A DNA stretch of 64,000 nt from the IMG/VR virus record IMGVR_UViG_3300025266_000004, positions 17,337 through 81,336 of that record. One strand, given 5' to 3'. The translations under genes were made by a program, and so were the position numbers. Positions 4,029 through 37,418 of this stretch are shown here, piece by piece. Source of the stretch: a virus. The stretch's first letter is position 1; each line of letters begins with the position of its first letter. The notes under the pieces were generated by a model. The model was not told the origin of the DNA. It was given only the letters and a program-made list of their open reading frames with translations, and ran no database searches.

Positions 4029-4031
4029 ATA

Positions 4032-4325
4032 TTAAGCTTTTTTAAAATGGTGTGAAACAAACGGTTGTGTAGGGTATTCTTTCAAATATACAACACCACA
4101 ATTCATATCACTTAAATCGGCATTAACAAACTCTAATACATTATATGTTTTATCTTCTTTTATATTGTCGTATAAATCAGAATATAAATTTATTATATTA
4201 ACTTTGTCTTTAGCTTTAAATTCAGTATTCGGTATTTCTATTGGTTCTCTTCTTTTCAGAGGAGGATTTTTATATCCTTTAGCAGGTGGTTTTTTAATCT
4301 TTAATTTTATTTTTATTTTAGTCAT
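4032..4325 (-). CDS. hypothetical protein
   Basis: 97-aa ORF with ATGA coupling to the upstream gene. Confidence 0.6.
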   Translation of the reverse strand: MTKIKIKLKIKKPPAKGYKNPPLKRREPIEIPNTEFKAKDKVNIINLYSDLYDNIKEDKTYNVLEFVNADLSDMNCGVVYLKEYPTQPFVSHHFKKA

Positions 4326-11807: not shown

Positions 11808-12299
11808 TTATTTTAAGATTTCTTTTGCTCTTGTTACTGTGTTATACGTTATACCACAATAAGTGTCTATTTTAATAAAATTACTAGATTGTTCTAATAA
11901 CATATCTGAATCATCGTCTAGTATAACATAAGATTCGATAGTTTCTTTAGTTTTTTTTAACCATGTTTGGATCTCGAACCCTCTAGGTAAACTTCCACCG
12001 ATTCCTGCAGGTGGGTATATCTTTGGTGTTTTATCTATTAATTCACCAGTTATTCCAACACCTTTCAACAATTCTTTTAAATCATTAACAGGAACACCTT
12101 GTCTCCATGTCGATGATAAGACTATTTTAGCGTTAGTTTCATCTGTTAATCTATTCACTAAAGCAACACATCTAGGATCAAACCATCTTCTTTTTTCGTG
12201 GTCTACTATACCACCACATAATTCTTTATATTCTTTCCAACCTTTAAACCAAATTTCATGATTTAATACTCCATCTATATCTAAAAATATTACCTTCAT
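11808..12299 (-). CDS. HAD phosphatase of the Swiss-Army-Knife RNA-repair type (HAD_SAK_2-like)
   Basis: FLDIDGVLN, IVLSSTWR, RGFEIQTWL and YVILDD motifs. Confidence 0.85.
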   Translation of the reverse strand: MKVIFLDIDGVLNHEIWFKGWKEYKELCGGIVDHEKRRWFDPRCVALVNRLTDETNAKIVLSSTWRQGVPVNDLKELLKGVGITGELIDKTPKIYPPAGIGGSLPRGFEIQTWLKKTKETIESYVILDDDSDMLLEQSSNFIKIDTYCGITYNTVTRAKEILK

Positions 12300-20033: not shown

Positions 20034-20149
20034 AACACCAATCTAAATAGTACATCTTCTCTGTGCCTTAAATGTCTGACGGATGGTGTACTTTCAATAT
20101 ATACTTCAACGATTCAAAGCTCCATGTATATATCTATTAGATTGGTATT
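20034..20149 (-). ncRNA. three-way-junction structured RNA directly 3' of the tRNA-like element
   Basis: 13-bp closing helix AAUACCAAUCUAA/UUAGAUUGGUGUU (one U-G pair on the minus strand); inner stems AUAUAUAC/GUAUAUAU and AGUACA/UGUACU. Confidence 0.5.
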
Positions 20150-20157
20150 GTAATTAG

Positions 20158-20259
20158 TAGTCAAGACAGGATTCGAACCTGTAAAACTGCTACCTCGTAA
20201 GGTTTCGTCATAATACCCATGGATTTACATACTGCGTCTACCAGTTTCGCCACTTGACT
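20158..20259 (-). tRNA. tRNA-like element (Leu-type D arm, non-canonical anticodon region, no encoded CCA)
   Basis: Acceptor AGTCAAG/CTTGACT+A, D arm TGGCGAAACTGGTAGACGC, T arm ACAGG-TTCGAAT-CCTGT; ~50 nt between the D and T arms with no standard 5-bp/7-nt anticodon arm. Confidence 0.7.
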
Positions 20260-20592: not shown

Positions 20593-20616
20593 ATCTTTGG
20601 TTTATTTGTTGTTAAA

Positions 20617-21093: not shown

Positions 21094-21121
21094 TATTATT
21101 TGTGTTTGTTGTTAAAATATA

Positions 21122-21268
21122 ATATAAACTCTCTTATCTACTATCAATTGTAGATGTACATAAAGACTAATAACTCATACTACTTGAATCTAGTACTTAG
21201 TCACAAGAATTGAACTTGACTCTCTCTAGATATAGACCACTACTTGTGTTATTAAAGAGAGTTTATAT
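21122..21268 (-). ncRNA. multibranched RNA with a T-loop hairpin (unclassified)
   Basis: 14-bp perfect closing helix; inner UAAUAAC/GUUAUUA, UCUAG/CUAGA, CAAG-UUCAAUU-CUUG and AUCUAC/GUAGAU stems. Confidence 0.55.
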
Positions 21269-21289
21269 AATATGTTGTAATACTATTTG

Positions 21290-21360
21290 TTACAGTATTG
21301 TAAATAGTATTATAAACACCATTGTAAAATCTACACCAATATAGACTGTTAAATGTTATA
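21290..21360 (-). repeat. dispersed early-region repeat, copy A
   Basis: Shares TATAAACACCATTGTAAAAT and the GTAAAATCTACAC...AAATGTTATA segment with copy B. Confidence 0.75.
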
Positions 21361-21577
21361 ATTTGTACACTTTAATTATATACTCTATTTCCTTTTTCCA
21401 AAATCTTACAGGATTGTTTAAATCATTAGCTACAATAAATGTCTTATTGTTAATTGCTTTAATAGAGTCTTTCCAATATTTAATATAATTATTATAATGA
21501 CTTGTATTATGTCTTAAATCAAAGTCTTTTTTCTTTTGTAATTTGATCTTATAATTATCTACTTGTCCATTGTCCAT
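21356..21577 (-). CDS. hypothetical protein
   Basis: 73-aa ORF with the conserved leader. Confidence 0.55.
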   Translation of the reverse strand: MDNGQVDNYKIKLQKKKDFDLRHNTSHYNNYIKYWKDSIKAINNKTFIVANDLNNPVRFWKKEIEYIIKVYKL

Positions 21578-21610
21578 TTTATTTGTTGTTAAATCCGTTG
21601 TTATAATATG

Positions 21611-22081
21611 TTATAAATATGGTGTTGTATCATTACTTACAACATATTTAAGAGTATCTTTCATCGAATCCATTTCAGCTTCAAATTCCTCTATTTCTTT
21701 GTCTGTGTGATTACCTGAATAAATACATTTATTATCAACGAATAAACTACAACCAGGTCTGTACTGTTTATTGTATAGTAAATGACTACGAAGATTAGTA
21801 GCTTTAACGCCATTAATAACATGACCTCCATTACCATATAATCTTAGTACAGAATGTATTGTTTCACTAGAATTTACATCTAAAATACTATTCTTAATTA
21901 TATACTCTCTACAATTTTGTATTGCAACTGTTCTTGCGTGTGCTTCTCTCTCTGCTACATCAGGTATAGGATTTTTTACTACTATACCACTTAAAAAATG
22001 TGTACTAAAAAATAGATGAATGTCAGAGCCATTAGCATCAGGTTTGATATGTAGTTTATACAATTCTATTAGTTCTTTCAT
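21611..22081 (-). CDS. hypothetical protein
   Basis: 156-aa ORF with the conserved leader. Confidence 0.65.
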   Translation of the reverse strand: MKELIELYKLHIKPDANGSDIHLFFSTHFLSGIVVKNPIPDVAEREAHARTVAIQNCREYIIKNSILDVNSSETIHSVLRLYGNGGHVINGVKATNLRSHLLYNKQYRPGCSLFVDNKCIYSGNHTDKEIEEFEAEMDSMKDTLKYVVSNDTTPYL

Positions 22082-22105
22082 GTTGTTAAATATTATTTGT
22101 TATAT

Positions 22106-22214
22106 TACTTATTACAGCAGTGTAAATGTCACTATAAACACCATTGTAAAATTGTACAACTATTATTTGTACTTTTGTAAAATCTACACTAATATACACT
22201 GTAAAATGTTATAA
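22106..22214 (-). repeat. dispersed early-region repeat, copy B
   Basis: TACTTATTACAGCAGTGTAAAT identical to copy C; remainder similar to copies A and C. Confidence 0.75.
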
Positions 22215-22552
22215 AATGACAATACACAACAAACACTTATTCGCTTGTTAGTGTATTATACAGTTTAGGTCTATTAAATCCCTTATAAATTAATTCTTAT
22301 TGTAACTATTTTCATGGTGCACAAAGTTATTATTAGAACGCAGAATATTACCACTTGTAGCTCTGTTAAACAGTCACTACTACCTTTACTTAATAAATGT
22401 CTAAGTAATTATTAGAGTACTTTAGTCTCTCTATTTATGTGCTTATATAATTGACCATTCTGATATGTAGTGTAATCTAGTTACAGTAATTGTTAATTTA
22501 TAATTTGATAATCCCTCTATTTAGGAGGTTTAATCTGTTGCGTATTGTCATT
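22215..22552 (-). ncRNA. ~340-nt large structured RNA (unclassified)
   Basis: 17-bp closing helix with a single G-U pair on the minus strand; nested 11-bp and 8-bp helices and several inner stems; no ORF in the track. Confidence 0.6.
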
Positions 22553-22583
22553 AAATGTATTATTGTGTACTTATTAATTGTAG

Positions 22584-22695
22584 TACTTATTACAGCAGTG
22601 TAAATAGTACTATAAGTAGCATTGTGTAATTATTAAACTATTACGAAGCCTTTTGTGTAATATGTCGTAAAAACCACTAAACTATGTGATAAAAT
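22584..22695 (-). repeat. dispersed early-region repeat, copy C
   Basis: 22-nt exact match to copy B, then degenerate similarity. Confidence 0.7.
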
Positions 22696-22781
22696 ATGAC
22701 TAAAATGGTGAAATAATCGTGATTTGAGTATTAGGAACGTATGAAAAGGTGTATATTTATAATAGAGTGGTATAATAGGAG

Positions 22782-22846
22782 CTAGAGGGTTTGGTTTCTA
22801 AGCGACCAGCGGGAGCTGGTGTCCGTCGGTATACCATCCCCTCTAG
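22782..22846. ncRNA. GC-rich stem-loop element
   Basis: CTAGAGGG/CCCTCTAG outer stem and inner ACCAGC-GGGA-GCTGGT hairpin. Confidence 0.45.
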
Positions 22847-22877
22847 TATCCCAAGCATCTAATTATTCACCCAAATT

Positions 22878-23624
22878 TCAATCTGCAAATTCAACTCTCC
22901 CAAAATTAACTGTATAATCAACACCACCTACTCTATAATGGTACTCACCTTTTACATTATCAACAGCAGTTACTTTAGCTACTCTTTCTGCATCTTCTTT
23001 CCAGTATATCCAATGATCCACTAAATCGTGCTTTCTATCAACATTTTCACACTTATCTCCACCTTTATCTTCGTCTACTAATTTAGTAAATCTAGAATGT
23101 GTATTACGAAGCATCTTTCCCTTATAATAATGATATATATGTTCACCATATTCAATGTGTTCAGTAGTTCCAACTCCGTGAATAGTAAATGTACCTTCGT
23201 TAAGTAGTGTAAACCCTCTACCTACTAAACTATGTGTTCTACTAATCACTCCAGGTGTTAATTCGTCTTTATTAACAGGTACATAAACATCATCCTCACT
23301 ATGTATCCCAAGAGTATCAGCTTGTCCTTTTAAACCTTCAGCGTATTCAGCATTACTAACTTCAATTGCTTTACCCATCTTTTGATATGTAGTTTCACAT
23401 AAATCTAAGTCAGGTGATTTCAGTACTGTAATATCAAACAAAGCTATAAGTATTATATGTGCAAAATCATCTATAATCAATATAAGTTTAAAATCATTAC
23501 TTTTAGATTGATGGACAGCATCTAAAACACCTTTAAAAGTCATCCCACTGTTCTTTTCTTCAATTTCCACTGTAGAACCTACTAAACTATTTAGTTTCTC
23601 TACTATTATATCTCTTGTATTCAT
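22878..23624 (-). CDS. hypothetical early protein
   Basis: 248-aa ORF with an A-rich leader. Confidence 0.65.
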   Translation of the reverse strand: MNTRDIIVEKLNSLVGSTVEIEEKNSGMTFKGVLDAVHQSKSNDFKLILIIDDFAHIILIALFDITVLKSPDLDLCETTYQKMGKAIEVSNAEYAEGLKGQADTLGIHSEDDVYVPVNKDELTPGVISRTHSLVGRGFTLLNEGTFTIHGVGTTEHIEYGEHIYHYYKGKMLRNTHSRFTKLVDEDKGGDKCENVDRKHDLVDHWIYWKEDAERVAKVTAVDNVKGEYHYRVGGVDYTVNFGRVEFAD

Positions 23625-23652
23625 ATCTCTTTATTTATTTGTTTTTAAAATC

Positions 23653-23718
23653 ATAACAAGCAAGTATTACACCACTATAATGTACACTAAAACCAACTAC
23701 TACATTACTACTTGTTAT
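23653..23718. other. intergenic stem-loop
   Basis: ATAACAAG/CTTGTTAT outer stem and TAATGTA/TACATTA inner stem. Confidence 0.4.
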
Positions 23719-23807
23719 AAATACTAATTCACCATTCTCATTAATCTTATAACTACTCATATCTTTATTTGTTGAAATCTAAGCCACAGTATACCAGTAA
23801 ATACTAG

Positions 23808-23957
23808 TTAACCTACTAGCATTACTTGACTATACATCTCTGTTAGCCCTGTTATTTCTGTCTTTACGAATTTAGGTGTGTCAACTCTTAACATACCATT
23901 AGTATCAACAACGAGATTACCCATTGTTAATACTTCAGTTTCTTTCTTCTTTCTCAT
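23808..23957 (-). CDS. small hypothetical protein (49 aa, below track cutoff)
   Basis: MRKKKETEVLTMGNLVVDTNG...; TAATG overlap with the upstream gene. Confidence 0.45.
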   Translation of the reverse strand: MRKKKETEVLTMGNLVVDTNGMLRVDTPKFVKTEITGLTEMYSQVMLVG

Positions 23958-24226
23958 TAGTTACAAGCTATCATTTCATTTATGGTAAACTTGTTATTGT
24001 ACCATTTCTCAATGTGGAACACACCCTTACGAATATATCCTCTAACCTCAACTAAATGAGGTATTGCTTTGATATCACCTCTGTTGAACACAGCAGGTAT
24101 GAAATCACTATTATTTTCAATATTATTAACGTCACTATTATTGACATCAACAATACCATCAGTATATACTACTCTAATCCTAGGTAATACTCTATTTATT
24201 TTCTTTGGTTCTTTATTATTTGACAT
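23957..24226 (-). CDS. hypothetical protein
   Basis: Track ORF 23957-24253; ATG at 24226 (MSNNKEPK) preferred. Confidence 0.55.
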   Translation of the reverse strand: MSNNKEPKKINRVLPRIRVVYTDGIVDVNNSDVNNIENNSDFIPAVFNRGDIKAIPHLVEVRGYIRKGVFHIEKWYNNKFTINEMIACN

Positions 24227-24245
24227 AATGTGGTAAATTAGTTGG

Positions 24246-24329
24246 TTAAACAAAAGCTATAAGTATAGTTACAGTGCTCATAGCACCTGCAAGTATCCCA
24301 AGCATAAAATGTATCTTAGATTCATTCAT
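24246..24329 (-). CDS. 27-aa single-TM micropeptide
   Basis: MNESKIHFMLGILAGAMSTVTILIAFV; fills the gap between the hairpins and the next gene. Confidence 0.4.
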   Translation of the reverse strand: MNESKIHFMLGILAGAMSTVTILIAFV

Positions 24330-24393
24330 AATAAGCAGTATTTAGGTATTAAAACAATAACTACACTATAGTATTACCTATAGCATAGTTATT

Positions 24394-24580
24394 ATAAACA
24401 CTTACAAGGTTCTCATCCTTGAATTACTCAGGTGATTAATAAAGTTCGTCAGCCTCTCTTGGTTAGTTGGTAGAATATAACTTGTTGTACATTTCTTTAC
24501 CTATGTACACATTATATTCTACTGATTGTTTAACTTTATTAATTTGCACCTCAACCCTCTATGATTGGGTAAATGTTTAT
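24394..24580. ncRNA. ~190-nt rod/multibranch structured RNA (unclassified)
   Basis: 12-bp closing helix; ATTAATAAAGTT/AACTTTATTAAT, GTAGAATATAA/TTATATTCTAC, TGTACAT/ATGTACA stems and two side hairpins. Confidence 0.55.
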
Positions 24581-24593
24581 TATTTAAATGATA

Positions 24594-25022
24594 TTAGAAA
24601 GGCATATCATCATCACCTTTATCAGCAGATGCTACAGGAGCACTTGGTTGAGCTATTGCTTGACGCATTGCTACATCAATCAATTGATTAGTAGCTCTAG
24701 TACTCAATGCAATAGATTCATTAGTATTCTTTGGAAAGTCTTTTCCGTATACTCCTTCTTCGCCGTCCTTCTTAATATAAGTATCCCCAGCTTTCACATT
24801 CTCTACATCCATTGACATAGTACTACCACCAGTCTGTACTAAAAGCTTTAATACGAAAGCATTTGGTGCACCACATCTAGTAGCTAGTCTAGCTAGTTGT
24901 CCACTAGATTGTTTGAATACACCAGTAGCACTTGGATTGTCTGCTGATTTGTTTGTTACAATTACACCAGTACCGTCAGCGTTAATTTGAATTTCTTTGA
25001 TTGTTAATGTTACATTTTTCAT
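24594..25022 (-). CDS. SSB-like protein with a bacterial SSB C-terminal tip
   Basis: Beta-rich N-terminus, Ala/Pro linker, ends DDDMPF (compare SSB-Ct DDDIPF). Confidence 0.6.
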   Translation of the reverse strand: MKNVTLTIKEIQINADGTGVIVTNKSADNPSATGVFKQSSGQLARLATRCGAPNAFVLKLLVQTGGSTMSMDVENVKAGDTYIKKDGEEGVYGKDFPKNTNESIALSTRATNQLIDVAMRQAIAQPSAPVASADKGDDDMPF

Positions 25023-25258
25023 AAGTCTTAAAGTTTAAAAGTTAATAAGTTATTATATTATTCTACTACCTATTCGTTATAAGTAGATTTTGAGGATTAA
25101 AAACACCATCGGGGTGATTCAATCCAAAATTTAGTGAGGGGGGATGAATGGAGGTGGTTCTCGCTTCGACATATATCCCCACTTTTATTTCTACAAATTT
25201 TTATTTTTTATATCCACTTTACCATCATCCAATACGTCGCCTAGTATATATGCCAGAG

Positions 25259-25490
25259 AGTCTCCTAATATCTTGTGTTTAATATCTTGTGTCATCTATG
25301 TCTAATATCTCCCGATTTATCATTTGTAGAGTCTCCGAATAGTCTCAATTTCACCATGTTGTAAAGTCTCCAAATAGTCGCTAAGTCGGCATGTCGAATA
25401 GTCTCCAGAATCTCACTTTATATAGTCTCCAATCAGCAGTCTAAAAATCTCAATTATCACCACCTTGTACAGTCTTTACAATCTCCAGTT
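25259..25490. repeat. iteron-like AGTCTCC repeat cluster (candidate origin or terminus)
   Basis: Five AGTCTCC copies plus AGTCT variants, two adjacent 35-nt units (25324-25358, 25359-25393), and tandem TAATATCTTGTGT, all in the strand-switch gap. Confidence 0.6.
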
Positions 25491-25825
25491 ATATACCACT
25501 CTATACACTTGTAAAACCACCATTGTAGATTGTACTATATAGAGACACCGTGACACCATTTTTTCATTAACGGCTAGACACCAAGTAGAGCAGTCTAAAT
25601 AGTTGTTCAATATTTAGAGTAGGATTTGGGATGGGATTTGGAGTGCTCTAAAAGATGATACTTTAGATACCAAAGATGAACCTATAATAAACACCATGTG
25701 GACTGCTATAAATTGTTATATAGTATATGGTGCATTGGTGACTCCACGAGTGGGTATAAAAAATCCCATATACATTGGTGTAGTATATAGGTGTGGTGTT
25801 TTCTTGTTACCTTGAATAAGATATT

Positions 25826-26038: not shown

Positions 26039-26473
26039 ATGAAATTAGATACTACAATACAGCATATTTTAGACGTTATTAATCGTGAGGTTAATGATGA
26101 GATGGATATAGATTTAGACGATGACACTGTCTTAGATATTATTAATAGTCAATTCAGTGGTATTGCTGGATATACAAAAGACAAGAAAGTCGTTAAGCTA
26201 GACTACTTCGGTAAATTTAAGATTGCTGATGGTCGGGAAGATTACGTAACAAAAGGTAGATTAAAGAACATTATGGTATATTTAGGAAACATTGAAATAC
26301 TACCTGATTATAGGTATGTTATTGAAGACAGAGAAGAGGTTGATTATCATTCTATAGTTAAGTTTGTAGATAGTCAGCTTAAGAGTAAGATTGGTATTGC
26401 TACTATAGTTGATAAAATTAAGGTTGTAATAGATGGTGTTAATACACCTTTAAAACACTTAACAAATGATTAA
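26039..26473 (+). CDS. HU/IHF-like DNA-binding protein
   Basis: Helical N-terminus followed by KVVKLDYFGKFKI, an HU-like GxF turn. Confidence 0.55.
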   Translation: MKLDTTIQHILDVINREVNDEMDIDLDDDTVLDIINSQFSGIAGYTKDKKVVKLDYFGKFKIADGREDYVTKGRLKNIMVYLGNIEILPDYRYVIEDREEVDYHSIVKFVDSQLKSKIGIATIVDKIKVVIDGVNTPLKHLTND

Positions 26474-27149
26474 GATATTTAATGTCTCACGGACTAATGA
26501 ACTAACTATTGATTTAGCTGTTGTTAAATCTATTCCTGAGTTCAAGAAGATAGTAACTAGAGATAAGGGAAGTTCGGGTGATTCTGATGGTAGAAAGAAG
26601 TATAGAGCAGACAAAGAAATGATCTATGTATACTACTTAGCTGATTTAAGGAGTCCTCCTAGACTTGATGGTAAGAGTGAGAGAGATATACATGATTACG
26701 CTGTTACTTCTGCTGGTTTAGAAGAAAGCTATCAGGTGGATGAGGTAATTGAGATTGCTATAGCAAAGTATAAAGAGATACAGTTGGACACACCTGAACT
26801 TAGACTTTTAAATTCACTTTTAAGGGGTCTTGTTATGTCTAGTAAAGTTGTAGACGTTATTACTGATAAGATAGAGACTGATTTAGATTTTTACGCTAAT
26901 GGTGGCTTGGCTACAACAGCTGAGACTTTAGCAGACTTAGAGAGTGACAGTGTAGAACTTAAACCTGATGCTAGTGCAATGCTTTCTAACTTGATTGGAA
27001 ATATGAATGAAATCAGTAAGATGGGTAGTTCTGTAAACAAGGCTATCACAACTGTTAAAGATGTATACGAGAAAGTTAAGCAACAAATGAGTGAAGACGA
27101 TGCTATAAGAGGTGGTGGAACAATCAACCCAAGAGAAATGCCAAATTAA
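26466..27149 (+). CDS. conserved crAss-like protein (possible terminase small subunit)
   Basis: RDK...KEMIYVYY motif, coiled-coil tail with RGG; lies upstream of TerL. Confidence 0.45.
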   Translation: MIKIFNVSRTNELTIDLAVVKSIPEFKKIVTRDKGSSGDSDGRKKYRADKEMIYVYYLADLRSPPRLDGKSERDIHDYAVTSAGLEESYQVDEVIEIAIAKYKEIQLDTPELRLLNSLLRGLVMSSKVVDVITDKIETDLDFYANGGLATTAETLADLESDSVELKPDASAMLSNLIGNMNEISKMGSSVNKAITTVKDVYEKVKQQMSEDDAIRGGGTINPREMPN

Positions 27150-27167
27150 TATTAAATAAATAGATAT

Positions 27168-27911
27168 ATGAATTATTATTTAGACACAGAATTTCACGAG
27201 TACAAAAAGAAGCCTTTTATAGGTAAAGCTATAGATACTATAGAACTTATTTCAATAGGTATTGTAGCAGAAGATGATAGAGAGTATTATGCTGTTAGTA
27301 ACGAGTTTGATTTAAAAGCTACTTGGAGTAATGAATGGTTAAGAGATAACGTACTATTAAATATTGTACACGACTTAGCTAGAAAAGATTACAAAGAGAA
27401 AGACGCTTATATGCACGATTTCGGTAGTTATACAAATTGGTTAAAGTATATAAAAAAAGGGAATAACTGGGAAAAAACATGGTACAAGAGAAGTAAAGAA
27501 CTTATTAATAAGTATGGTAAATCAAGAGAACAAATAGCTACTGAGATTAAAGAGTTTGTGACAATGTCAAATGTACTAACCTTCGAACTTAGTCCTAATA
27601 GTATTAGTCCTGTTAATATGACACCTATTAATTTCTACGCATACTACGCTGACTATGATTGGGTAGTATTCTGTTGGTTATTTGGACGTATGATTGACCT
27701 ACCAAAAGGATTCCCAATGTACTGTATAGATTTAAAGCAAGAGTTAGACAATAAGGCTATTGATTTTGAAAAAGAGAGTTGGATTGGGAAAGGTAATGGA
27801 GTGGAATATCTTAAAGATAGAATAGAGTATCCTAAACAAGATAACGAACATAATGCTCTTGACGATGCTAAATGGAATTTAAAACTACATAAGTTTATAC
27901 AATCACTATGA
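27168..27911 (+). CDS. DEDDh 3'-5' exoribonuclease (Rv2179c/DUF5051-like)
   Basis: YLDTEF, LISIGIV, YADYDWV and HNALDDA motifs. Confidence 0.85.
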   Translation: MNYYLDTEFHEYKKKPFIGKAIDTIELISIGIVAEDDREYYAVSNEFDLKATWSNEWLRDNVLLNIVHDLARKDYKEKDAYMHDFGSYTNWLKYIKKGNNWEKTWYKRSKELINKYGKSREQIATEIKEFVTMSNVLTFELSPNSISPVNMTPINFYAYYADYDWVVFCWLFGRMIDLPKGFPMYCIDLKQELDNKAIDFEKESWIGKGNGVEYLKDRIEYPKQDNEHNALDDAKWNLKLHKFIQSL

Positions 27912-29002: not shown

Positions 29003-29479
29003 ATGAAAAATTACATTGGAACAAAACAACTATTAGCAAAGCCTATGACATTAGGTGAATATAATAAGTACAGAGGATGGGATTTACCTACTGATGAAGA
29101 CGGTAATAAAAAAGGTTATTTAGTAGAGTACGTAGATAGTACAGACGCTAATCACCCTGATCATAAAGGATATATTTCTTGGAGTCCTGTAGAAGCTTTT
29201 GAAAAAGCATATAGAACTACTGACGGTTTGACATTTGGATTAGCTATAGAAGCTCTTAAACAAGGTAAGAAAGTAGCTAGAAAAGGATGGAATGGAAAAG
29301 GAATGTGGTTAAGATATATTAATCCTTACCATAATACACAATATTCAATAGCCGAATTATCAGACATTGAAGGTACATTAATGCCATATATTGCAATGAA
29401 AACTGTAGATAACGGTCTAATACCTTGGTTAGCTAATCAAACGGATATTATAATTGAAGATTGGATAATAGTTGAATAA
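29003..29479 (+). CDS. two-domain protein: YIGTK/SWSP domain plus DUF2829 (Tad2-like) domain
   Basis: C-terminal LTFGLAIEALKQGKKVARKGWNGKGMWL...PWLANQTDIIIEDW is the DUF2829 signature. Confidence 0.75.
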   Translation: MKNYIGTKQLLAKPMTLGEYNKYRGWDLPTDEDGNKKGYLVEYVDSTDANHPDHKGYISWSPVEAFEKAYRTTDGLTFGLAIEALKQGKKVARKGWNGKGMWLRYINPYHNTQYSIAELSDIEGTLMPYIAMKTVDNGLIPWLANQTDIIIEDWIIVE

Positions 29480-30113: not shown

Positions 30114-32207
30114 ATGGCTATTAGTTACGAGAACGGTTTATATAAGAATGATGATGATTTAACATTTGTTAATATGGAGTACTTTCGTGAACCTGCGAAG
30201 TACTTTTTAAAGCATGGTGTTTATACACACGAACCGTTTGGTTCTCCTAGATACCTTGCGTATTGGGACGAACAAGATAAAAGATGTAGAGAAGGATATA
30301 CTGTAGGTGGTGTTACTTTAACAGGTGAACATTATGGGTATTTAAACTTTGCACAAATCAAGGTAACACAAGATGCTAATAAGTCTGCTTATAAAGAAGC
30401 TAAGAAGGATGGACATACTCAAAAAGCAAAGAGACAATCAGCTGAGAAGAAAGTTACTTTTCCTGATTTCTATGATGGTGATTACCATTACTTTAAAGCT
30501 AAGGAGTTCGCTAGGGAACAAGGTCTTCATTTATGTGTAGGTAAAGCTAGACGTAAGGGATACTCATATAAGAATGGTTGGATTGGTGCTAACAGGTATA
30601 ACTTATATCCACAGAGTATTACTGTGATAGGTGCATTCTCTAGTAGTTATCTATATCCTCGTGGTACTATGTCGATGGTTAAAGAATATCTTGATTTTCT
30701 TAATAAACATACTGATTGGGAAAAGAAGAGACTACTTAGTAATATGTCTCATATGAAGTCTGGTTATAAGTATGTAGGACAAGATGAAGAGCATGGTTTC
30801 TTAAGTGAGGTTATTGCTGTTAGTTTTGGACCTGCTAATCCAGGTGCAGCTAGGGGTAAAGATGGTACTCTATTTATGTTTGAAGAAGCAGGTAAGTTTC
30901 CTAATCTAATTGAGAGTTTAACATCTACTGCTCCTGCTGTAGAGGATGGTGTCTTTGTTACTGGTCAAATACTTATATTTGGTACTGGTGGAGATGATGC
31001 TTCTAACTGGGATGGGTTCGAGGAAATATTCTATGACCCTGAGACTTATAATATGCTTGCTTTTGATAATATATGGGATGACAATGCTGAAGGTACTTCA
31101 TGTGGTTTCTTTGTACCTCAAATAAGAAACCTCCCAGGTTTTATAGATAAGGACGGTAATAGTTTAACTGCTGCTGCTTTAGAACATGAGACATCTATTA
31201 GAGATAGTATTAAGAAGACATCTAAAACTAGTACTAAGTTAAGTGGTTACCAAATGGAGTACCCTAACAAACCTAGTGAAGCTTTTGCAAGGAATACAAA
31301 TAACATCTTCCCTACTATTGAGATTGATGCACAACTAAAGCTAGTACAGAATGATGGTAATATTAAATACCTAGGTAGACAAGGTGTTTATAAAGATACT
31401 GCAAAAGGTGTTATACTAGTACAAGAAGATACAAAAGGAAAAGATTATGAATACATTAAAGAATTTCCACTTAAAAAAGGTAGCCATGTCGATGTTGATG
31501 GGTGTATTGTTGAATTTCAACCTCCTTACACTTTACCTGATGGTAGAATACCTCAAGGTTTATATAGGATATGGAATGACCCTTATGCACAGGACAAAGA
31601 CACTGATGCGATAACTACAAAGGATTCTCTAGGAGCTACTTATGTATATGAGGTTACTAATAGGTTTACAGGAAGTAAAGGAGATATTCTAGTAGCTGCT
31701 TATGTAGGTAGACCACCGTCTATGGATGCGTACAATAAACAACTATATCTTTTAGCTAAGAGATACGGTGGTGCCCCAGGTATGGTACAGTTCGAGAATG
31801 ATAGGGGTGATGTAAAGAATTACTTTAAGAAGATGAAAGCATATCATTTACTTGCTGACGAACCTGAGGTAACATGGAAACGAGAACTCCAATCAGCTAA
31901 GACTGGAAGGGTTAAAGGTATCATGATGAATGCTAAGAGAAAAGGTACTGCCGCAATCTATTTAAGGGATTGGCTTTTAGATAAGAGAGGAGAAGACGAG
32001 AACGGCAACGATGTTTTGAATTTAAACTATATATACGACGAAGGACTACTAAAAGAGTTGCTAAAGTGGCATATAAAAGGTAACTTCGATAGAGTTTCGG
32101 CAATGCTTGTTGGTATGTTCGATTATAGAGAGGTTGAGACACAGGAAGAAATACAGGCTACGGGTGGTGCTCAGAATAATTTTTTCAGTAAGAGTTTATT
32201 TAAATAA
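30114..32207 (+). CDS. terL: terminase large subunit
   Basis: crAss-type KARRKGYSY Walker A, FEEAGKF Walker B, GTGG, nuclease DPY...GNFDRVSA. Confidence 0.93.
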   Translation: MAISYENGLYKNDDDLTFVNMEYFREPAKYFLKHGVYTHEPFGSPRYLAYWDEQDKRCREGYTVGGVTLTGEHYGYLNFAQIKVTQDANKSAYKEAKKDGHTQKAKRQSAEKKVTFPDFYDGDYHYFKAKEFAREQGLHLCVGKARRKGYSYKNGWIGANRYNLYPQSITVIGAFSSSYLYPRGTMSMVKEYLDFLNKHTDWEKKRLLSNMSHMKSGYKYVGQDEEHGFLSEVIAVSFGPANPGAARGKDGTLFMFEEAGKFPNLIESLTSTAPAVEDGVFVTGQILIFGTGGDDASNWDGFEEIFYDPETYNMLAFDNIWDDNAEGTSCGFFVPQIRNLPGFIDKDGNSLTAAALEHETSIRDSIKKTSKTSTKLSGYQMEYPNKPSEAFARNTNNIFPTIEIDAQLKLVQNDGNIKYLGRQGVYKDTAKGVILVQEDTKGKDYEYIKEFPLKKGSHVDVDGCIVEFQPPYTLPDGRIPQGLYRIWNDPYAQDKDTDAITTKDSLGATYVYEVTNRFTGSKGDILVAAYVGRPPSMDAYNKQLYLLAKRYGGAPGMVQFENDRGDVKNYFKKMKAYHLLADEPEVTWKRELQSAKTGRVKGIMMNAKRKGTAAIYLRDWLLDKRGEDENGNDVLNLNYIYDEGLLKELLKWHIKGNFDRVSAMLVGMFDYREVETQEEIQATGGAQNNFFSKSLFK

Positions 32208-32216
32208 TAATATAGT

Positions 32217-34538
32217 ATGAATGTATTTCCAAAACAGAAGGTTAAGACTTCTGAAAAACTTAAGATAAATAAAGGTGACGACTTTCCTCAATGGGGTAAG
32301 GATAACATGGATTTTCTTATAGATAACATTGGTAGTGATTATGAGAAGCTAGAAATGCAATCTTTAATGCGTGTAGCAGAAGGGTACATTGACCAAGAGT
32401 TATATAGTTATGTATTGAATCCTTATAATACTGATACAGGTAAGAATAGAAACTTTCCTGCAAGACTGAGAAACTATGATATAATTAGTCCTGTTATATA
32501 TAGTTTTCTAGGTGAGAAGAGTAAGAAGCCTAATAACTTTCAAGTAGTTGCTGTTAATGAGGATGCACCAAATATGTTTACTGAGAAGTTACATGGTGAA
32601 ATGTCTAAGTTATTAAATCAGCAGTTTATTAATAATCTTAATGAGCTTGGTGTTGATACTGGGATGCAGAGTAAAGAAGGTACACCAAGTGCTCAAGATT
32701 TCTATAAAGAGTTTGCTACTTCTTATAGTGATGCAAGAGCTATAAAGGGACAGGAATCACTCAATATATTGAAGTATGATCTTGACATCAAAGATAAAAT
32801 GCAGACAGCTTTCTATTACTGGCTAGTACTCGGAAGGGTCATTACATATAAGGACGTACACAGAAATGATGTTAGCTACGATGTAGTTCACCCTATTGAA
32901 ATGACTTACTCTAAGAGTCCTAATTTACCATACATAGAAGATGGTAACTGGGCATTGAGAAAGTTTAAGATGAATGTTAATGATGTTATTGATAGATGGA
33001 GAGACGACTTAGATGATAAAACTATTGACCTATTAGAGAACTTAGGTGACTCTTTACATAACAGTGAAATCAATCACTTTAATGAGATTGCTACTAATAG
33101 TCAATTCAATCATGATTCAGATGGTTTGTTAGATGTTTATCACGGTACTTGGAAGTCATTTAAGTTAATAGGTATATTAAAGTATAGTGACGAACTAGGA
33201 ATTGAGAGAGAGAAAGAAGTTGATGAGAAGTATAAAATAGATAAAAGCATAGGTGATTTAAGTATTAAATGGGAATGGATAAACGAAGTTTGGGAATGTT
33301 GGAGAATAGATGAAAGTATCTACTTAGACTGTAGACCTATTAAAGTACAAAGAGATGAAATGAATAACAGCTCTGTATGTAAACTACCTTATAATGGTAG
33401 AACTTGGTTTAGTGAAACAAATAATATTAAGTCTGTTCTTAAAGAAGGTATTGATTATCAAACTCTATATAATATATATCACTATAGAGCTGAAATGACA
33501 ATGGCTAGAAATAAGGATAAACTACTTATGATGCCAATGGGTATTTTACCAAAGGAATGGGGTGATGATGCAATGGAGAATTTTATGTACTATGCGGAAG
33601 CTACAGGAATAGGTTGGATAGATGAGAGTAGACCAGGTGCTATGGCTGCTTTACAATCTATTAAAGCAGTAGATTTATCACTGTCTCAATATTTCTCTGC
33701 TATGTATGAAGCTATGCAAGCTATAAAACAAGAGTGGTGGGATAGTGTTGGAATGAACAGACAGAGATATGGAGATACTAAAGCTAGTGATGGTAAAGGT
33801 GTTAATGAACAAGCAATCTTTAGAAGCTCTGTAATAACAGAGGAGTTGTTTAGACAATTTGGTAAGTTCGAAGAGAAGGATTTAAATGGTCTATTAGACT
33901 ATTCTAAGTTAGCTTGGATTGACGGTAAAAGAGGTTCTTATATAGGTAGTGACGGTAGAGCTGAATTATATGATGTCGATAGTCTTCAACACATGGAGAG
34001 TCAGTACGGTATATTTGCTAAAGATCAAAGTGATGAGAATGAGAAACTAGAGACTATGAAGAGTATTGCTTTAACGTTTGCTCAAAATGGTAGTAAGCCA
34101 GGTCTTATATCAGAGATAATAGATAGTAGTAACTTTAGTCAAACAAAGACTCATTTAGCTAACTTAGATAAGATGGAAGATGAGAGATTGAAAGCTGAAC
34201 AAAAAGCTGAACAAGAATCTAATGAACGTATTCAACAAATGGTTAATGAGAATGACGAGAAAAATAGAGAAGCCGCTAAGTATAAAGTCGATATGGATTA
34301 TAAACGACATATTGATGGTAAGAAGATAGATGCTAAATTAGCTATTAACTTGAAAGACGATATTGCACCTGTAGATGATACTTTAGATTATTTAAAAGAG
34401 AGTAATCAAAATGCTACAAATAGAGAACAGATGCAAAGAACTAGCGACTTAGAGAATAAGAAACTAGACATTGAAAGAGAAGGAATGCGTAGTGCTGAAA
34501 ATATAGCTAGAGAGAATAAAAATAAACACGATAAGTAA
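32217..34538 (+). CDS. portal protein
   Basis: 773 aa directly after TerL; FPxQK start, NYDII..GE and GMNRQRYG motifs of crAss portals. Confidence 0.88.
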   Translation: MNVFPKQKVKTSEKLKINKGDDFPQWGKDNMDFLIDNIGSDYEKLEMQSLMRVAEGYIDQELYSYVLNPYNTDTGKNRNFPARLRNYDIISPVIYSFLGEKSKKPNNFQVVAVNEDAPNMFTEKLHGEMSKLLNQQFINNLNELGVDTGMQSKEGTPSAQDFYKEFATSYSDARAIKGQESLNILKYDLDIKDKMQTAFYYWLVLGRVITYKDVHRNDVSYDVVHPIEMTYSKSPNLPYIEDGNWALRKFKMNVNDVIDRWRDDLDDKTIDLLENLGDSLHNSEINHFNEIATNSQFNHDSDGLLDVYHGTWKSFKLIGILKYSDELGIEREKEVDEKYKIDKSIGDLSIKWEWINEVWECWRIDESIYLDCRPIKVQRDEMNNSSVCKLPYNGRTWFSETNNIKSVLKEGIDYQTLYNIYHYRAEMTMARNKDKLLMMPMGILPKEWGDDAMENFMYYAEATGIGWIDESRPGAMAALQSIKAVDLSLSQYFSAMYEAMQAIKQEWWDSVGMNRQRYGDTKASDGKGVNEQAIFRSSVITEELFRQFGKFEEKDLNGLLDYSKLAWIDGKRGSYIGSDGRAELYDVDSLQHMESQYGIFAKDQSDENEKLETMKSIALTFAQNGSKPGLISEIIDSSNFSQTKTHLANLDKMEDERLKAEQKAEQESNERIQQMVNENDEKNREAAKYKVDMDYKRHIDGKKIDAKLAINLKDDIAPVDDTLDYLKESNQNATNREQMQRTSDLENKKLDIEREGMRSAENIARENKNKHDK

Positions 34539-35933: not shown

Positions 35934-37418
35934 ATGAACGGAAGCAACTCAACTAATGCTAGAGTCTTGTATCACGATAGACATGACTCTACAGGGTTTA
36001 CAAATGAGAATACATTAGCTAATGCCTTACTCTCAAAACCAGATCAATTAAATCCTGTAATCACTCACCTACAAGGTAGAGAAGATAATAGGTTTCCATT
36101 GTCTTTTATGACAGAAGGACAAAAAGGTGGAACACGAACTATTGAACTTAATGATGTACAATATGATTGGAATACTTTTAGAAGATTAAGAACTACTGAT
36201 ACAGTTGTTTCTAGTGCATATACTTCTTCTAGTAAAGCAGGTATTGGTCACGGTTACTTCTATGTTACTTTTAAAGAGAACTGGTTAAAGCAACAAAGAA
36301 CTGTTGAATCACCTAATGGTACTCGTGCTAGAATCATGGGTAAAGCAATGCAAGATGGTAGTAATTTTAAATATACTTTACAAATTATTACAACTGATAT
36401 TGGAGCATTTGTAGATCCTACTCAATTTGCTGCTGGAACTATATGGGGTTCTGTAGGTGGATCGTCTGTTTCTGAATCATACTCTAAGGGTAATGAAAGT
36501 AATGTTACAACTCCAGGTAAAATAAAGAATCAAATTAACTTCTTAAGAAAGAGTTATGAGATAGGTGGAAATTTAGCTAACAAGACTGTCGAAGTTCAGT
36601 TTAATGTTAATGGTAAAATGACTAACTACTGGATTGATTTCGAGAGATGGCAACATATGATTGATTGGAAAGCTTCTTGTGAAGAGGAGTACTGGTATTC
36701 TACTTATAATAGAAACTCTAGTGGTGTTGTTACAATGAATGACCCTGATACTGGATTACCTATTCCAATGGGAGCTGGTTTATTAGATCAAATTCCTAAT
36801 CATGATACGTATAGTGAATTGACTGCACAGAAGATTAAAAGAACTGTTGCTGATGTTATGTATGGTGCTACTGATACAGGTAACATGGACATTACTTTAT
36901 ATACTGGTGAAGGTGGAGCTGAAGAGTTTGACAACGCTATGAAAGATGAAGCTAGTGGATTCAATCTTGTAGCTAACGCTAATGTAGGTGATAAATTCGT
37001 TAAAGGTGGTACTGGAAGTAGAAACTTAATGTATGGTGCTTACTTTACTCAATATCAACACGTAGATGGACATACAGTTACTCTTAAAAAGGTTAACTTA
37101 TTCGATCATGGTGGTAGAGCTGCTGTATCTAACAGACATCCTGTTACAGGTAAACCTCTTGAATCATATAGAATGGTATTTGTGGATCAATCTGTTTACG
37201 ATGGTGAAAGAAATGTTCAAATGGTTACTCAAAAAGGAAGAGGAATGATTACTGGTATACTTAAGGGTATGGCGCCGACTCCTTATGACTTTAAAGGTAA
37301 CAACGATATGAACATCGCTACTGATCAAGATAAGTCTAGTGTACATTTCTTATCTGCTAAGGGTGTTGCTATTAGACGTAATACACATTGTTTCCAATTA
37401 ACGTGTGATATTTCATAA
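35934..37418 (+). CDS. major capsid protein
   Basis: 494 aa, crAss MCP-like (GAGLLDQI, TGEGG..F, Y.HVDGH motifs); followed by a terminator. Confidence 0.9.
   Translation: MNGSNSTNARVLYHDRHDSTGFTNENTLANALLSKPDQLNPVITHLQGREDNRFPLSFMTEGQKGGTRTIELNDVQYDWNTFRRLRTTDTVVSSAYTSSSKAGIGHGYFYVTFKENWLKQQRTVESPNGTRARIMGKAMQDGSNFKYTLQIITTDIGAFVDPTQFAAGTIWGSVGGSSVSESYSKGNESNVTTPGKIKNQINFLRKSYEIGGNLANKTVEVQFNVNGKMTNYWIDFERWQHMIDWKASCEEEYWYSTYNRNSSGVVTMNDPDTGLPIPMGAGLLDQIPNHDTYSELTAQKIKRTVADVMYGATDTGNMDITLYTGEGGAEEFDNAMKDEASGFNLVANANVGDKFVKGGTGSRNLMYGAYFTQYQHVDGHTVTLKKVNLFDHGGRAAVSNRHPVTGKPLESYRMVFVDQSVYDGERNVQMVTQKGRGMITGILKGMAPTPYDFKGNNDMNIATDQDKSSVHFLSAKGVAIRRNTHCFQLTCDIS

What the first reader, a model, noticed from the sequence alone, without database searches (positions are those of the whole stretch)
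21290..25109. Four 33-nt ATG...TAA cassettes: 10-aa hydrophobic micropeptides or virion-RNAP early promoters
Seen on the minus strand: 21322-21290 MVFIILFTIL*, 22144-22112 MVFIVTFTLL*, 22622-22590 MLLIVLFTLL* and 25109-25077 MVFLILKIYL*. All have identical length, and each ends 20-55 nt upstream of a structured RNA or gene. The first three sit in longer degenerate repeats with ~12-nt TAAA periodicity; the fourth shares only ATGGTGTTT and the spacing. Inference: either leader peptides/micropeptides, or a bipartite promoter (ATGGTGTTT-N19-TRTAA) unlike the host consensus and thus a candidate virion RNAP promoter.
Basis: partly seen in the sequence, partly recalled or inferred. Interest (0 to 1): 0.7.

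Follow-up and report, generated by a model that had tools for sequence, protein, structure and literature searches.

The report
Repeated promoter-type modules, crAss-like phage
Three of the four tiny "genes" are copies of one non-coding control module that sits in front of two structured RNAs and one gene in the first-expressed region of an uncultured marine crAss-like phage; the fourth is a chance look-alike, and none looks like a real peptide gene.

Summary
All four 33-nt ATG...TAA frames exist as described, but 60 such ten-codon frames occur in the window. Copies A (21322), B (22144) and C (22622) are one gap-free DNA repeat of about 65-125 nt, found only three times in the 81-kb genome (nhmmer E 4.5e-15 to 3.1e-17). 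The fourth (25109) is not a member: E 7, and about 40 unrelated positions match as well.

The window is a marine crAss-like phage with a DFDLD giant polymerase ORF. A, B and C head a 338-nt structured RNA, a 156-aa gene and a 157-nt structured RNA.

Against peptides:
- Conservation runs past the ORF ends.
- Ten of 11 codon differences change the residue.
- Start contexts are poor.
- The frame at the fourth site is broken in the nearest reachable relative.

Best reading (0.5): promoter-bearing regulatory modules. Each has, 11-53 nt before its ATG, a box TAnnTTRGTG that also precedes three other transcription units (6 in 3.6 kb non-coding versus 0.4 expected). It resembles the Bacteroidota -7 element.

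A virion-polymerase promoter is not excluded (0.15). No RNA data and no close relative could be reached. The scan has noted candidate early-promoter boxes in other crAss-like phages; none shares this sequence.

The parts
21290..21322 (-). Cassette A (33-nt ATG...TAA frame), the core of module A
   Evidence: sequence, translation; nhmmer E 4.5e-15
21270..21346 (-). Module A: box U TATATTGGTG (21343-21334) directly followed by the core; dyad ATACTATTT..AAATAGTAT around TTTACA-N4-TGTAA
   Evidence: DNA hairpin -10.3 kcal/mol, z -3.7; 12-nt period
22112..22144 (-). Cassette B, the core of module B
   Evidence: nhmmer E 3.1e-17
22092..22217 (-). Module B: box U TATATTAGTG (22196-22187), a 31-nt insertion relative to A, then the core; ends 30 nt before ATG 22081
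   Evidence: (D2); no stable hairpin (-2.4 kcal/mol, z +1.6)
22590..22622 (-). Cassette C, the core of module C
   Evidence: nhmmer E 1e-16
22570..22695 (-). Module C: box U-like TAGTTTAGTG (22684-22675), spacer, then the core
   Evidence: (D2: 71% to module B over 125 nt); hairpin -6.7 kcal/mol, z -1.2
22215..22552 (-). Non-coding region downstream of C: about 338-nt fold closed by a long stem joining its two ends
   Evidence: MFE -79.7, z -2.95, 0 of 100 shuffles; no ORF of 50 aa or more inside it under table 11, TAG=Q or table 4; no Rfam match
21117..21273 (-). Non-coding region downstream of A: about 157-nt fold closed by a stem of about 19 bp, followed by a short U run
   Evidence: MFE -38.5, z -2.09, 6 of 200 shuffles; no Rfam match
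21611..22081 (-). 156-aa early ORF directly downstream of module B
   Evidence: phrog_14040 (unknown function) E 1.8e-15
25077..25109 (-). Cassette D: not a member of the repeat family; lies inside the control region of the first leftward gene (ATG 25022)
   Evidence: (E 7.1); frame not kept in L058
25126..25141 (-). G+C-rich box CCCCTCACTAAATTTT just upstream of cassette D, conserved with relatives L058/L059/L060
   Evidence: alignment A3; single exact copy in the window; one copy in each of L058-L060
26002..26011 (+). Box U copy TATATTAGTG 27 nt before the first rightward gene (ATG 26039)
   Evidence: L058 has TATATTTGTG, with TTG 19 nt upstream, at the equivalent place
25771..25780 (+). Box U copy TACATTGGTG in the divergent control region
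20036..20045 (-). Box U copy TAGATTGGTG 42 nt before ATG 19993

Best explanation
A, B and C are three paralogous copies of a lineage-specific, non-coding regulatory module in the hypervariable first-expressed (leftward) region of a crAss-like phage.

Each module has two parts:
- an upstream box, TAnnTTRGTG (here 'box U');
- 1, 39 and 43 nt further on, a conserved core of about 60 nt, which contains the ATG...TAA frame, a TATART word and a partial dyad TTTACA-N4-TGTAA.

Proposed mechanism: box U acts as the -10/-7 element of a promoter. By its likeness to the Bacteroidota-type -7 box, and because it is shared with the head of the late operon, it is most likely read by the host RNA polymerase. 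Transcription would start a few bases downstream and run leftward. It would produce a 338-nt structured RNA (after C), the mRNA of the 156-aa and 73-aa ORFs (after B) and a 157-nt structured RNA (after A). The core would then be the conserved first stretch of each transcript and/or an operator overlapping the start site. The ten-codon frames are by-products of these DNA/RNA signals.

Shown: the repeat, its copy number, its position and orientation, the enrichment of box U in non-coding DNA, and the poor coding signature.

Inferred: promoter activity, the start site, which polymerase reads it, and that the downstream folds are real RNAs.
For: Genome context:
- Crassvirales-type TerL, portal and MCP, with TerL hits to crAss-like, Bacteroides and Flavobacterium phages at 35% identity or less.
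- An ORF of more than 1863 aa with DFDLD.
- Genes run leftward from 25022 and rightward from 26039.

The repeat:
- Only three copies in 81,336 bases, all on the sense strand of the leftward genes and all in non-coding DNA.
- Each copy sits at the 5' side of a unit.
- Sequence similarity stops about 50 nt after the ATG, where the three downstream sequences become unrelated. This is what shared start signals in front of different products would give.

Box U:
- 6 matches in 3,609 non-coding bases against 0.40 +/- 0.63 in 2000 shuffles, none reaching 4. There are 5 matches in 60,391 coding bases.
- The three matches outside A/B/C are all oriented towards the next gene: 42 nt before ATG 19993, 27 nt before ATG 26039, and at 25771.
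- At the place equivalent to 26002, relative L058 has TTG-N19-TATATTTG. This is the pattern I read upstream of the four phi14:2 middle genes, whose promoters the preprint reports as used by host-type RNAP (passages of bioRxiv 10.1101/2020.03.07.982082).

Precedent: in phi14:2, two long intergenic regions early in the same module are transcribed more strongly than most genes, from the earliest time point and without later decline (same preprint, passages).

Coding signature absent: and 57/58.
Against: - No transcript data exist. The only run holding this DNA is its likely source.
- No close relative could be reached, so conservation of the module is untested. The similarity of the three copies could reflect recent duplication alone.
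- Box U was defined from A, B and C and then searched, so its enrichment is partly post hoc. With A/B/C counted once it rests on three further sites.
- None of the own-genome box U sites has TTG at the 20-nt spacing seen in phi14:2. Position 7 of the box is A or G, not the T of the consensus.
- The full Bacteroidota pattern is not enriched in this genome: 13 against 11.9 +/- 4.3.
- In L058 the loosened box is at chance level: 3 against 5.1.
- Only 6 of 46 relatives have a canonical match in the 1.5 kb before the homologue of the second rightward gene, the 227-aa ORF at 26466-27149.
- E. coli-type -35/-10 matches inside the core (for example TTTACA-N16-TACAAT, 10 of 12) are no more frequent in this region than in shuffles: 49 against 41.2 +/- 6.4.
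- The core is better conserved than box U, which a pure promoter model does not explain.
- On the opposite strand the core also offers TTACAG-N15-TATAAR, so the orientation of the two RNAs is inferred, not shown.
Confidence: 0.5

Rival explanations
1. The core itself is an early promoter read by the injected giant (virion) RNA polymerase. Recognition would be through the dyad or small hairpin TTACA-N4-TGTAA, or through sequence blocks in the core. The polymerase would start the RNAs at the 3' edge of the core.
For: - The phage encodes a crAss-type giant polymerase ORF with DFDLD.
- The modules lie 2.5-3.8 kb into the leftward module that corresponds in position to the early genes of phi14:2.
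- gp66 of phi14:2 transcribes single-stranded or denatured DNA, and no promoter motif for it was found (preprint passages). My searches found no later paper defining one.
- The inner 5-bp dyad with a 4-nt loop is present in all three copies and nowhere else in the window without mismatch.
- The core lacks the Bacteroidota -7 word.
- There are three copies, as for N4 P1-P3 (PMC4496689, passages).
Against: - The hairpin is not a kept feature: DNA folding gives -10.3 (z -3.7) for A, -6.7 (z -1.2) for C, and -2.4 (z +1.6) for B.
- It is A+T-rich with a 4-nt loop, unlike the G+C-rich, 3-nt-loop N4 hairpins.
- The very first leftward gene, which an injected polymerase must reach first, has no copy. 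Its upstream block, conserved with L058, is a different sequence.
- A host-type box sits just upstream in every module.
- The phi14:2 intergenic RNAs do not decline late, unlike other early transcripts.
Confidence: 0.15
2. The frames are translated into 10-residue hydrophobic micropeptides, or act as leader or upstream ORFs that control the downstream unit.
For: - ATG and TAA are kept in all three copies, and all replacements but one (L/T) keep hydrophobic residues.
- T occupies codon position 2 in 8 of 10 codons of A.
- If transcription starts after box U, the frames lie in the 5' part of the transcripts.
- C has an acceptable start context, at the 34th percentile of real starts.
Against: - Two of the three copies precede non-coding RNA, not a gene.
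- 10 of 11 pairwise codon differences are non-synonymous, and variable columns are 5/1/3 at codon positions 1/2/3.
- Conservation continues beyond both ends of the frame.
- ATG and TAA are each explained by a DNA word that recurs outside any frame.
- A and B have start contexts at the 3rd and 4th percentile of 70 real starts, within the bulk of all ATGs.
- Sixty such frames occur in the window by chance.
- The D frame is broken in L058.
Confidence: 0.07
3. The modules are binding arrays or operators for a phage or host DNA-binding protein, or a shared RNA element bound by a protein. They would have no promoter of their own. The roughly 12-nt degenerate units and the dyad would be the binding sites.
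For: - 12-nt periodicity in A and shifted self-matches.
- A partial dyad.
- Related words, TACAA(N0-2)TGGTG three times and GGAGACT five times, crowd the divergent control region 25265-25540.
Against: - A 12-nt period does not match the DNA helical repeat.
- Periodicity is detectable by TRF only in A.
- The outer dyad is lost in B.
- No DNA-binding domain was found among 26 neighbouring ORFs in Pfam.
- The reading does not explain why each copy sits exactly at the head of a unit.
Confidence: 0.13
4. The three copies are recent segmental duplications or recombination scars with no present function of the core. They would resemble the T4-type promoter/stem-loop cassettes that shuffle ORFan genes, but possibly be inert here.
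For: - The region is hypervariable. Of 13 leftward ORFs tested, only the first (142 aa) has a homologue in the nearest reachable relatives, which have TerL at 62%.
- B and C share an insertion that A lacks.
- No other genome holds the element.
Against: - At 82% identity with scattered substitutions the copies are not very recent.
- Similarity peaks in a defined core and box rather than decaying from one breakpoint.
- All three keep the same orientation and the same position relative to downstream units.
Confidence: 0.1

Closest known systems
Long intergenic RNAs and middle promoters of Cellulophaga crAss-like phage phi14:2 (bioRxiv 10.1101/2020.03.07.982082; passages read; sequence read from NC_021806)
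   Same: - The genome plan is the same, with divergent early and late modules.
- Long non-coding stretches lie a few kb into the early module (phi14:2 2904-4602; here 22082-22877 and 21094-21355).
- The phi14:2 middle promoters carry TAnnTTTGT(A/G), close to box U.
- A TACCTTTGTA lies 25 nt after g004 at the head of the phi14:2 non-coding stretch.
   Different: - There is no sequence similarity between the regions.
- phi14:2 shows no comparable repeated module there.
- Its promoters have TTG exactly 20 nt upstream, which the modules here lack.
- Expression is measured in phi14:2 and only inferred here.
PeSL (promoter-early stem-loop) cassettes of T4-type phages (PMC2839356, abstract and outline read; PMC4122927, listing only)
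   Same: Short conserved regulatory cassettes, repeated in a hyperplastic region rich in ORFans and heading small units. They would offer homology for modular shuffling.
   Different: - PeSLs pair a strong sigma70 promoter with an effective terminator stem-loop. Here no G+C-rich terminator is part of the repeat.
- There are only three copies.
- No evidence of recombination between copies could be sought.
Early promoters P1-P3 of coliphage N4, read by its injected RNA polymerase (PMC4496689, passages read)
   Same: Three copies near the start of the early region of a phage that injects its own polymerase, with an inverted repeat in each copy.
   Different: - N4 has a G+C-rich heptamer centred at -11 in a 3-nt-loop hairpin that is required and kept in all three promoters. 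Here the dyad is A+T-rich with a 4-nt loop, and it is unstable in B.
- The N4 polymerase is T7-like, whereas the crAss enzyme is a two-barrel type (preprint abstract).
A+T-rich pre-early promoter motif of Thermus phage P23-45 virion RNAP (bioRxiv 10.1101/2022.12.01.518664, passages read)
   Same: A conserved A+T-rich motif upstream of the first-expressed units of a phage carrying a virion two-barrel polymerase.
   Different: - That motif heads 14 mapped start sites and coincides with ChIP-seq of the enzyme.
- I could not see its sequence, because only the figure legend was available.
- Here there are three copies and no mapping.

Membership tests
Translated small ORF (micropeptide or leader peptide) | Substitutions biased to synonymous / third codon positions | tested here: not met
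   Variable columns are 5/1/3 at codon positions 1/2/3, and 10 of 11 pairwise codon differences are non-synonymous (sequences).
Translated small ORF (micropeptide or leader peptide) | Conservation bounded by the ORF | tested here: not met
   Identity is 0.82 in the ORF, still 0.65/0.45/0.75 in the next 20 nt, and 0.67 (B/C) in the 33 nt before it.
Translated small ORF (micropeptide or leader peptide) | Start context like that of the genome's real genes | tested here: not met
   A PWM from 70 ORFs of 100 aa or more places A, B and D at the 3rd, 4th and 1st percentile, and C at the 34th.
Translated small ORF (micropeptide or leader peptide) | Frame and length kept in relatives | tested here: inconclusive
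   A/B/C have no counterpart in any reachable relative. For D, the L058 clade has a 2-nt length difference and a 4-codon frame.
Bacteroidota-type host promoter (TTG, about 20 nt, TAnnTTTG; motif recalled, then seen upstream of phi14:2 g070, g075, g108, g110) | -7 box TAnnTTTG | tested here: inconclusive
   The core has none. Box U matches 7 of 8 specified positions (TTGG or TTAG in place of TTTG) in A, B and C and at three other intergenic sites.
Bacteroidota-type host promoter (TTG, about 20 nt, TAnnTTTG; motif recalled, then seen upstream of phi14:2 g070, g075, g108, g110) | TTG about 19-21 nt upstream of the -7 box | tested here: not met
   None of the six own-genome box U sites has it: the strict pattern matches none of them, and the sequences show that the only TTG near B lies 23 nt away. 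L058 has it at 19 nt.
E. coli-type sigma70 promoter | -35/-10 hexamers at 16-18 nt, more than chance gives | tested here: inconclusive
   TTTACA-N16-TACAAT in C scores 10 of 12, but the region has 49 such sites against 41.2 +/- 6.4 in shuffles.
N4-type hairpin promoter of a virion RNAP | A stable small hairpin kept in every copy, G+C-rich, with a 3-nt loop | tested here: not met
   A 5-bp A+T stem with a 4-nt loop. The folds are -10.3, -2.4 and -6.7 kcal/mol, with z -3.7, +1.6 and -1.2. N4 features are from PMC4496689.
crAss-type virion-RNAP promoter | No defining sequence is published (searches; preprint passage) | not testable with these tools
   It needs transcription assays or rifampicin-resistant 5' ends.
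PeSL-like mobile regulatory cassette | Promoter plus terminator stem-loop, repeated in an ORFan-rich plastic region, with recombination between copies | tested here: inconclusive
   Plastic ORFan region: met, since 1 of 13 leftward ORFs is shared with the nearest reachable relatives. A terminator stem-loop within the repeat was not seen. Recombination is not testable without close relatives.
CRISPR-repeat mimic (solitary repeat unit) | Same word present as arrays in bacterial genomes | tested here: not met
   A 22-nt degenerate core pattern gave 6 single hits and no arrays in 596 billion bases of genome contigs.

The most novel reading that the evidence does not exclude
The conserved core, not box U, is the start signal of the injected crAss-type giant RNA polymerase, or a promoter-proximal element that this enzyme needs. 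It would launch abundant structured non-coding RNAs in the first minutes of infection. That would give a first sequence-defined promoter class for this enzyme family and tie it to phage long non-coding RNAs of unknown role.
Probability: 0.15. Interest if true: 0.7.

Novelty: new member of a known kind. Interest (0 to 1): 0.35.

Why it matters
crAss-like phages are among the most abundant viruses known, yet how their first genes are switched on is open. The one studied phage (phi14:2) gave no promoter motif for its injected polymerase, and it showed highly expressed early intergenic RNAs of unknown function (preprint passages).

A repeated module placed exactly in front of two such candidate RNAs gives a small, synthesizable test object of about 125 nt. 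It can be used to ask which polymerase makes these RNAs and when.

The result also clears away a tempting but unsupported set of four 'micropeptide genes'. It shows that the fourth site belongs to a different control block, conserved across phages, in front of the first early gene.

Tried and rejected
1. Close relatives:
   - Megablast and blastn of the region and tblastn of the 248-aa ORF against 50,697 phage records gave no match.
   - A 28-nt degenerate core pattern in IMG/VR gave 0 hits. A 22-nt dyad pattern gave 41 single hits, and only 2 of the 53 loci then held (L004-L056, which include those 41) scored E of 0.01 or less with the core profile, both just around the searched word.
   - TerL as a single query in IMG/VR and in JGI metagenomes returned only relatives at 38% or less.
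   - A 20-sequence TerL alignment gave 80 loci (957,591 bases), the best at 62%. No core-profile hit was below E 0.4, there were no exact core words, and DNA similarity was confined to the first early gene.
   - TerL relatives at 74% exist only in sources whose DNA I could not fetch.
2. Sequencing runs: one holder, probably the source, was listed, and no RNA holder was listed. Laying it showed the source contig only and no variants.
3. Rfam: nothing in the region but a tRNA-like hit at 20158-20259.
4. Alternative genetic codes (TAG=Q, table 4) open no long frame in the non-coding stretches.
5. CRISPR-repeat mimic: rejected.
6. GTCTATAT as a shared word: over-represented (14 against 5.2) but scattered through coding DNA, so dropped.
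7. YTTWTA-N16-TRTAAY, a sigma70-like reading that includes D: 9 sites against 3.3 +/- 1.6, and the 4 intergenic sense ones are the cassettes. Since A/B/C are one family, this is one family plus one site, so it is not counted.
8. Distant TerL relatives (33%) are not colinear upstream of TerL and gave nothing.
9. The 248-aa ORF next to the non-coding stretch:
   - a sub-threshold Sm-ATX hit (E 9.4e-4, 19.8 bits against a cut-off of 29.8);
   - no homologue;
   - no PDB sequence match;
   - a single-sequence AlphaFold model of pLDDT 32.5, unusable and not searched.
10. RNA hairpins of the cores are not better than shuffles: z -1.9, +0.1 and -1.1.
11. Earlier notes of this scan: none for this genome or for look-alikes.
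12. The published Nature version of the phi14:2 paper is not held, and bioRxiv supplements (primer-extension table, promoter file) are closed. They may list early 5' ends that bear on the comparison.

Full report
**What the window is.** PHROGs assign 30114-32207 to a large terminase, 32217-34538 to a portal and 35934-37418 to a major head protein. tblastn of the terminase finds 152 phage records, all below 60% identity. They are dominated by uncultured crAss-like phages and by Bacteroides and Flavobacterium phages. The ORF 58411-63999, which runs off the window, has 1863 or more codons and carries DFDLD at residue 1268. This corresponds to the DFDID catalytic motif of phi14:2 gp66 (preprint abstract). 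The record is an 81,336-base IMG/VR virus, 93% complete by CheckV. The one run holding it is labelled marine metagenome. G+C is about 30%, and strand skews flip near 25-26 kb. Genes run leftward from 25022 and rightward from 26039. This is the crAss plan: a leftward replication/early module and a rightward structural module, separated by a 1-kb control region.

**The observation.** The four frames are exactly as described. The window contains 60 ten-codon ATG...stop frames, 33 on the + strand and 27 on the - strand, so such a frame alone means little. A, B and C are different from the rest:
- They are gap-free copies of one repeat: 0.82 identity over the 33 nt in all three pairs, extending to 125 nt between B and C (D2).
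- A profile built from them finds only these three places in the whole genome, at E 3.1e-17, 1e-16 and 4.5e-15. The next hits are at E 0.26 and 0.32.

D scores E 7.1 in that search. Its 20/33 identity to A includes the 12 positions by which it was chosen. Over 44 nt it reaches 26 matches, a value equalled or beaten at 53 other positions, about 40 of them unrelated to the modules. D is therefore a chance look-alike.

The 12-nt periodicity is detectable by TRF only in A: 3.1 copies, 76% matches, score 46.

**Are they peptide genes?** The evidence is against it:
- Similarity continues past the stop (0.65/0.45/0.75 over 20 nt) and before the ATG.
- Of 9 variable columns, 5 are at first, 1 at second and 3 at third codon positions. 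Of 11 pairwise codon differences, 10 change the residue.
- The ATG is the end of the word TACAATG(GTG), which recurs in the control region outside any such frame.
- The TAA is the right arm of TTTACA-N4-TGTAA, present without mismatch only in the three copies.
- A start-context matrix built from 70 ORFs of 100 aa or more (A-rich leaders, no Shine-Dalgarno word) puts A, B and D at the 3rd, 4th and 1st percentile of real starts, and C at the 34th.
- Two of the three copies precede non-coding DNA. No frame opens there under table 11, TAG=Q or table 4.

**What lies downstream.**
- After C comes a 338-nt stretch that folds with a long stem joining its ends: -79.7 kcal/mol, z -2.95, 0 of 100 shuffles as good.
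- After A comes a 157-nt stretch closed by a stem of about 19 bp: z -2.09, 6 of 200 shuffles as good.
- After B, 30 nt on, comes the 156-aa ORF.
- Rfam has nothing for these stretches.

In phi14:2 the equivalent part of the early module holds 1.7 kb without genes. The preprint reports two intergenic regions there that are transcribed above most genes, from the earliest time point and without later decline (passages).

**An upstream box.** Ten to forty-eight nt before the word TACAATG, each module has TAnnTTRGTG: TATATTGGTG in A, TATATTAGTG in B and TAGTTTAGTG in C.
- The same pattern occurs at three other non-coding sites, each pointing at the next gene: 20045 (42 nt before ATG 19993), 26002 (27 nt before the first rightward gene) and 25771. 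The six sites align without gaps.
- That is 6 matches in 3,609 non-coding bases, against 0.40 +/- 0.63 in 2000 shuffles (none reaching 4) and 5 in 60,391 coding bases.
- The pattern was derived from A/B/C, so the independent support is the three extra sites.
- The box resembles the -7 element I read upstream of the four phi14:2 middle genes (TATATTTGTA, TACTTTTGTG, TAGTTTTGTA, TATCTTTGTA, each with TTG 20 nt upstream). The preprint assigns those promoters to host-type RNAP.
- In the nearest reachable relatives (L058-L060, TerL 62%), the site before the first rightward gene reads TTG-N19-TATATTTG.

Against a simple host-promoter reading:
- None of the six own sites has TTG at the right distance.
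- The full pattern is not enriched in this genome: 13 against 11.9.
- Only 6 of 46 relatives show it in the 1.5 kb before the homologue of the second rightward gene, the 227-aa ORF at 26466-27149.

**The virion-polymerase idea.** The core lacks the host word and carries a small dyad. However, single-strand DNA folding gives a convincing hairpin only in A (-10.3 kcal/mol, z -3.7), a marginal one in C (z -1.2) and none in B (z +1.6). RNA folding is no better. N4-type promoters need a kept, G+C-rich hairpin with a 3-nt loop (PMC4496689), so this element is not of that kind.

The first leftward gene has no copy of the module. Its upstream region instead shares with L058-L060 a different, G+C-rich block, ACCACCT...CCCCCTYACTAAATTTT...CCCCG. 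Cassette D lies at the 3' edge of that block, and there the relatives differ by 2 nt in length and have a 4-codon frame. If any sequence here is the first signal used after injection, that block is at least as good a candidate as A/B/C. No paper in the library defines a crAss virion-RNAP promoter, so membership cannot be tested.

**Relatives.** The module is absent from every collection I could search. The leftward region is hypervariable: of 13 leftward ORFs, only the first has a homologue (55% aa) in L058-L060. TerL relatives at 74% exist, but their DNA was out of reach. This is the main gap, because it leaves recent duplication without function as a live alternative. The situation resembles the PeSL cassettes of T4-type phages, which are promoter/stem-loop repeats in ORFan-rich plastic regions (PMC2839356, abstract).

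**Verdict.** Three of the four cassettes are real and non-random, but as DNA repeats rather than genes.
- The most likely function is a promoter-bearing regulatory module that launches two candidate structured RNAs and one small operon (0.5). Within that reading, the host polymerase is favoured over the injected one.
- The virion-polymerase promoter reading remains possible (0.15).
- Micropeptides are unlikely (0.07).
- Earlier notes of this scan describe candidate early-promoter boxes in other crAss-like phages. None overlaps this sequence, and I did not test them.

Noticed in passing
window 25058-25200 (-), with L058 6490-6600 (-): A control block upstream of the first leftward gene is conserved between this phage and the TerL-62% clade in otherwise unalignable DNA: an A-tract, ACCACCT, the box CCCCCTYACTAAATTTT, CCCCG, TTAATCC and AWATCTA. 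It is G+C-rich in a 30% G+C genome and is a candidate for the true first early signal.
   Followed up: partly
window 25265-25540: The divergent control region is packed with short repeats: GGAGACT five times on the minus strand (11 in the genome against 3.7 expected), a 35-nt tandem x2.4 at 25324-25407 (TRF score 91), a 14-nt tandem at 25266-25292, and TACAA(N0-2)TGGTG three times. They could be iterons or operator arrays, and the cumulative G-C skew minimum lies here.
   Followed up: partly
window 20158-20259 (-): A tRNA-like gene (Rfam tRNA, 37.8 bits) with a 37-nt insertion where the anticodon arm and variable region should be. ARAGORN calls no tRNA in the window. It may be an intron-bearing or decoy tRNA.
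   Followed up: no
window 22777-22853 (-): A G+C-rich long hairpin of about 75 nt lies right after the stop of the 248-aa ORF and 150 nt before module C. It is far richer in G+C than its surroundings and has no Rfam match.
   Followed up: no
window 22878-23624 (-): The 248-aa ORFan bordering the non-coding stretch has a sub-threshold hit of its N-terminus to an Sm-fold family (Ataxin-2 SM, E 9.4e-4). There is no homologue in 5.8 billion proteins and the AlphaFold model is unusable, so an RNA-binding role next to the candidate RNAs is only a lead.
   Followed up: partly
window 29003-29479 (+), 27168-27911 (+), 11808-12299 (-): A Thoeris anti-defence Tad2-like domain (E 1.2e-24), an Rv2179c-like 3'-5' exoribonuclease domain (E 1.1e-8) and a HAD domain of 'Swiss Army Knife' RNA-repair proteins (E 2.8e-28).
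   Followed up: no
genome G000:C1 1-1949 and 79607-81336 (window end): The two ends of the record overlap over about 1.9 kb at 97.5-99% identity. The genome is therefore circularly closed, but the assembly joins two slightly different strains. The giant polymerase ORF runs across this junction.
   Followed up: partly
window 22514-22528 (+): A terminator-like hairpin with a T run lies on the plus strand inside the 338-nt non-coding stretch. In L058 a box-U-like word also lies on the plus strand of its non-coding stretch. An antisense (rightward) transcript is therefore not excluded.
   Followed up: no
window, 5' leaders of many leftward genes (e.g. 21094-21116, 21578-21593, 20601-20616): A recurring leader word TTTAACAAC(AAA) lies just before start codons. 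The L058 clade has its own version (TTAAACTTTACAACTATG) repeated before several early genes.
   Followed up: no
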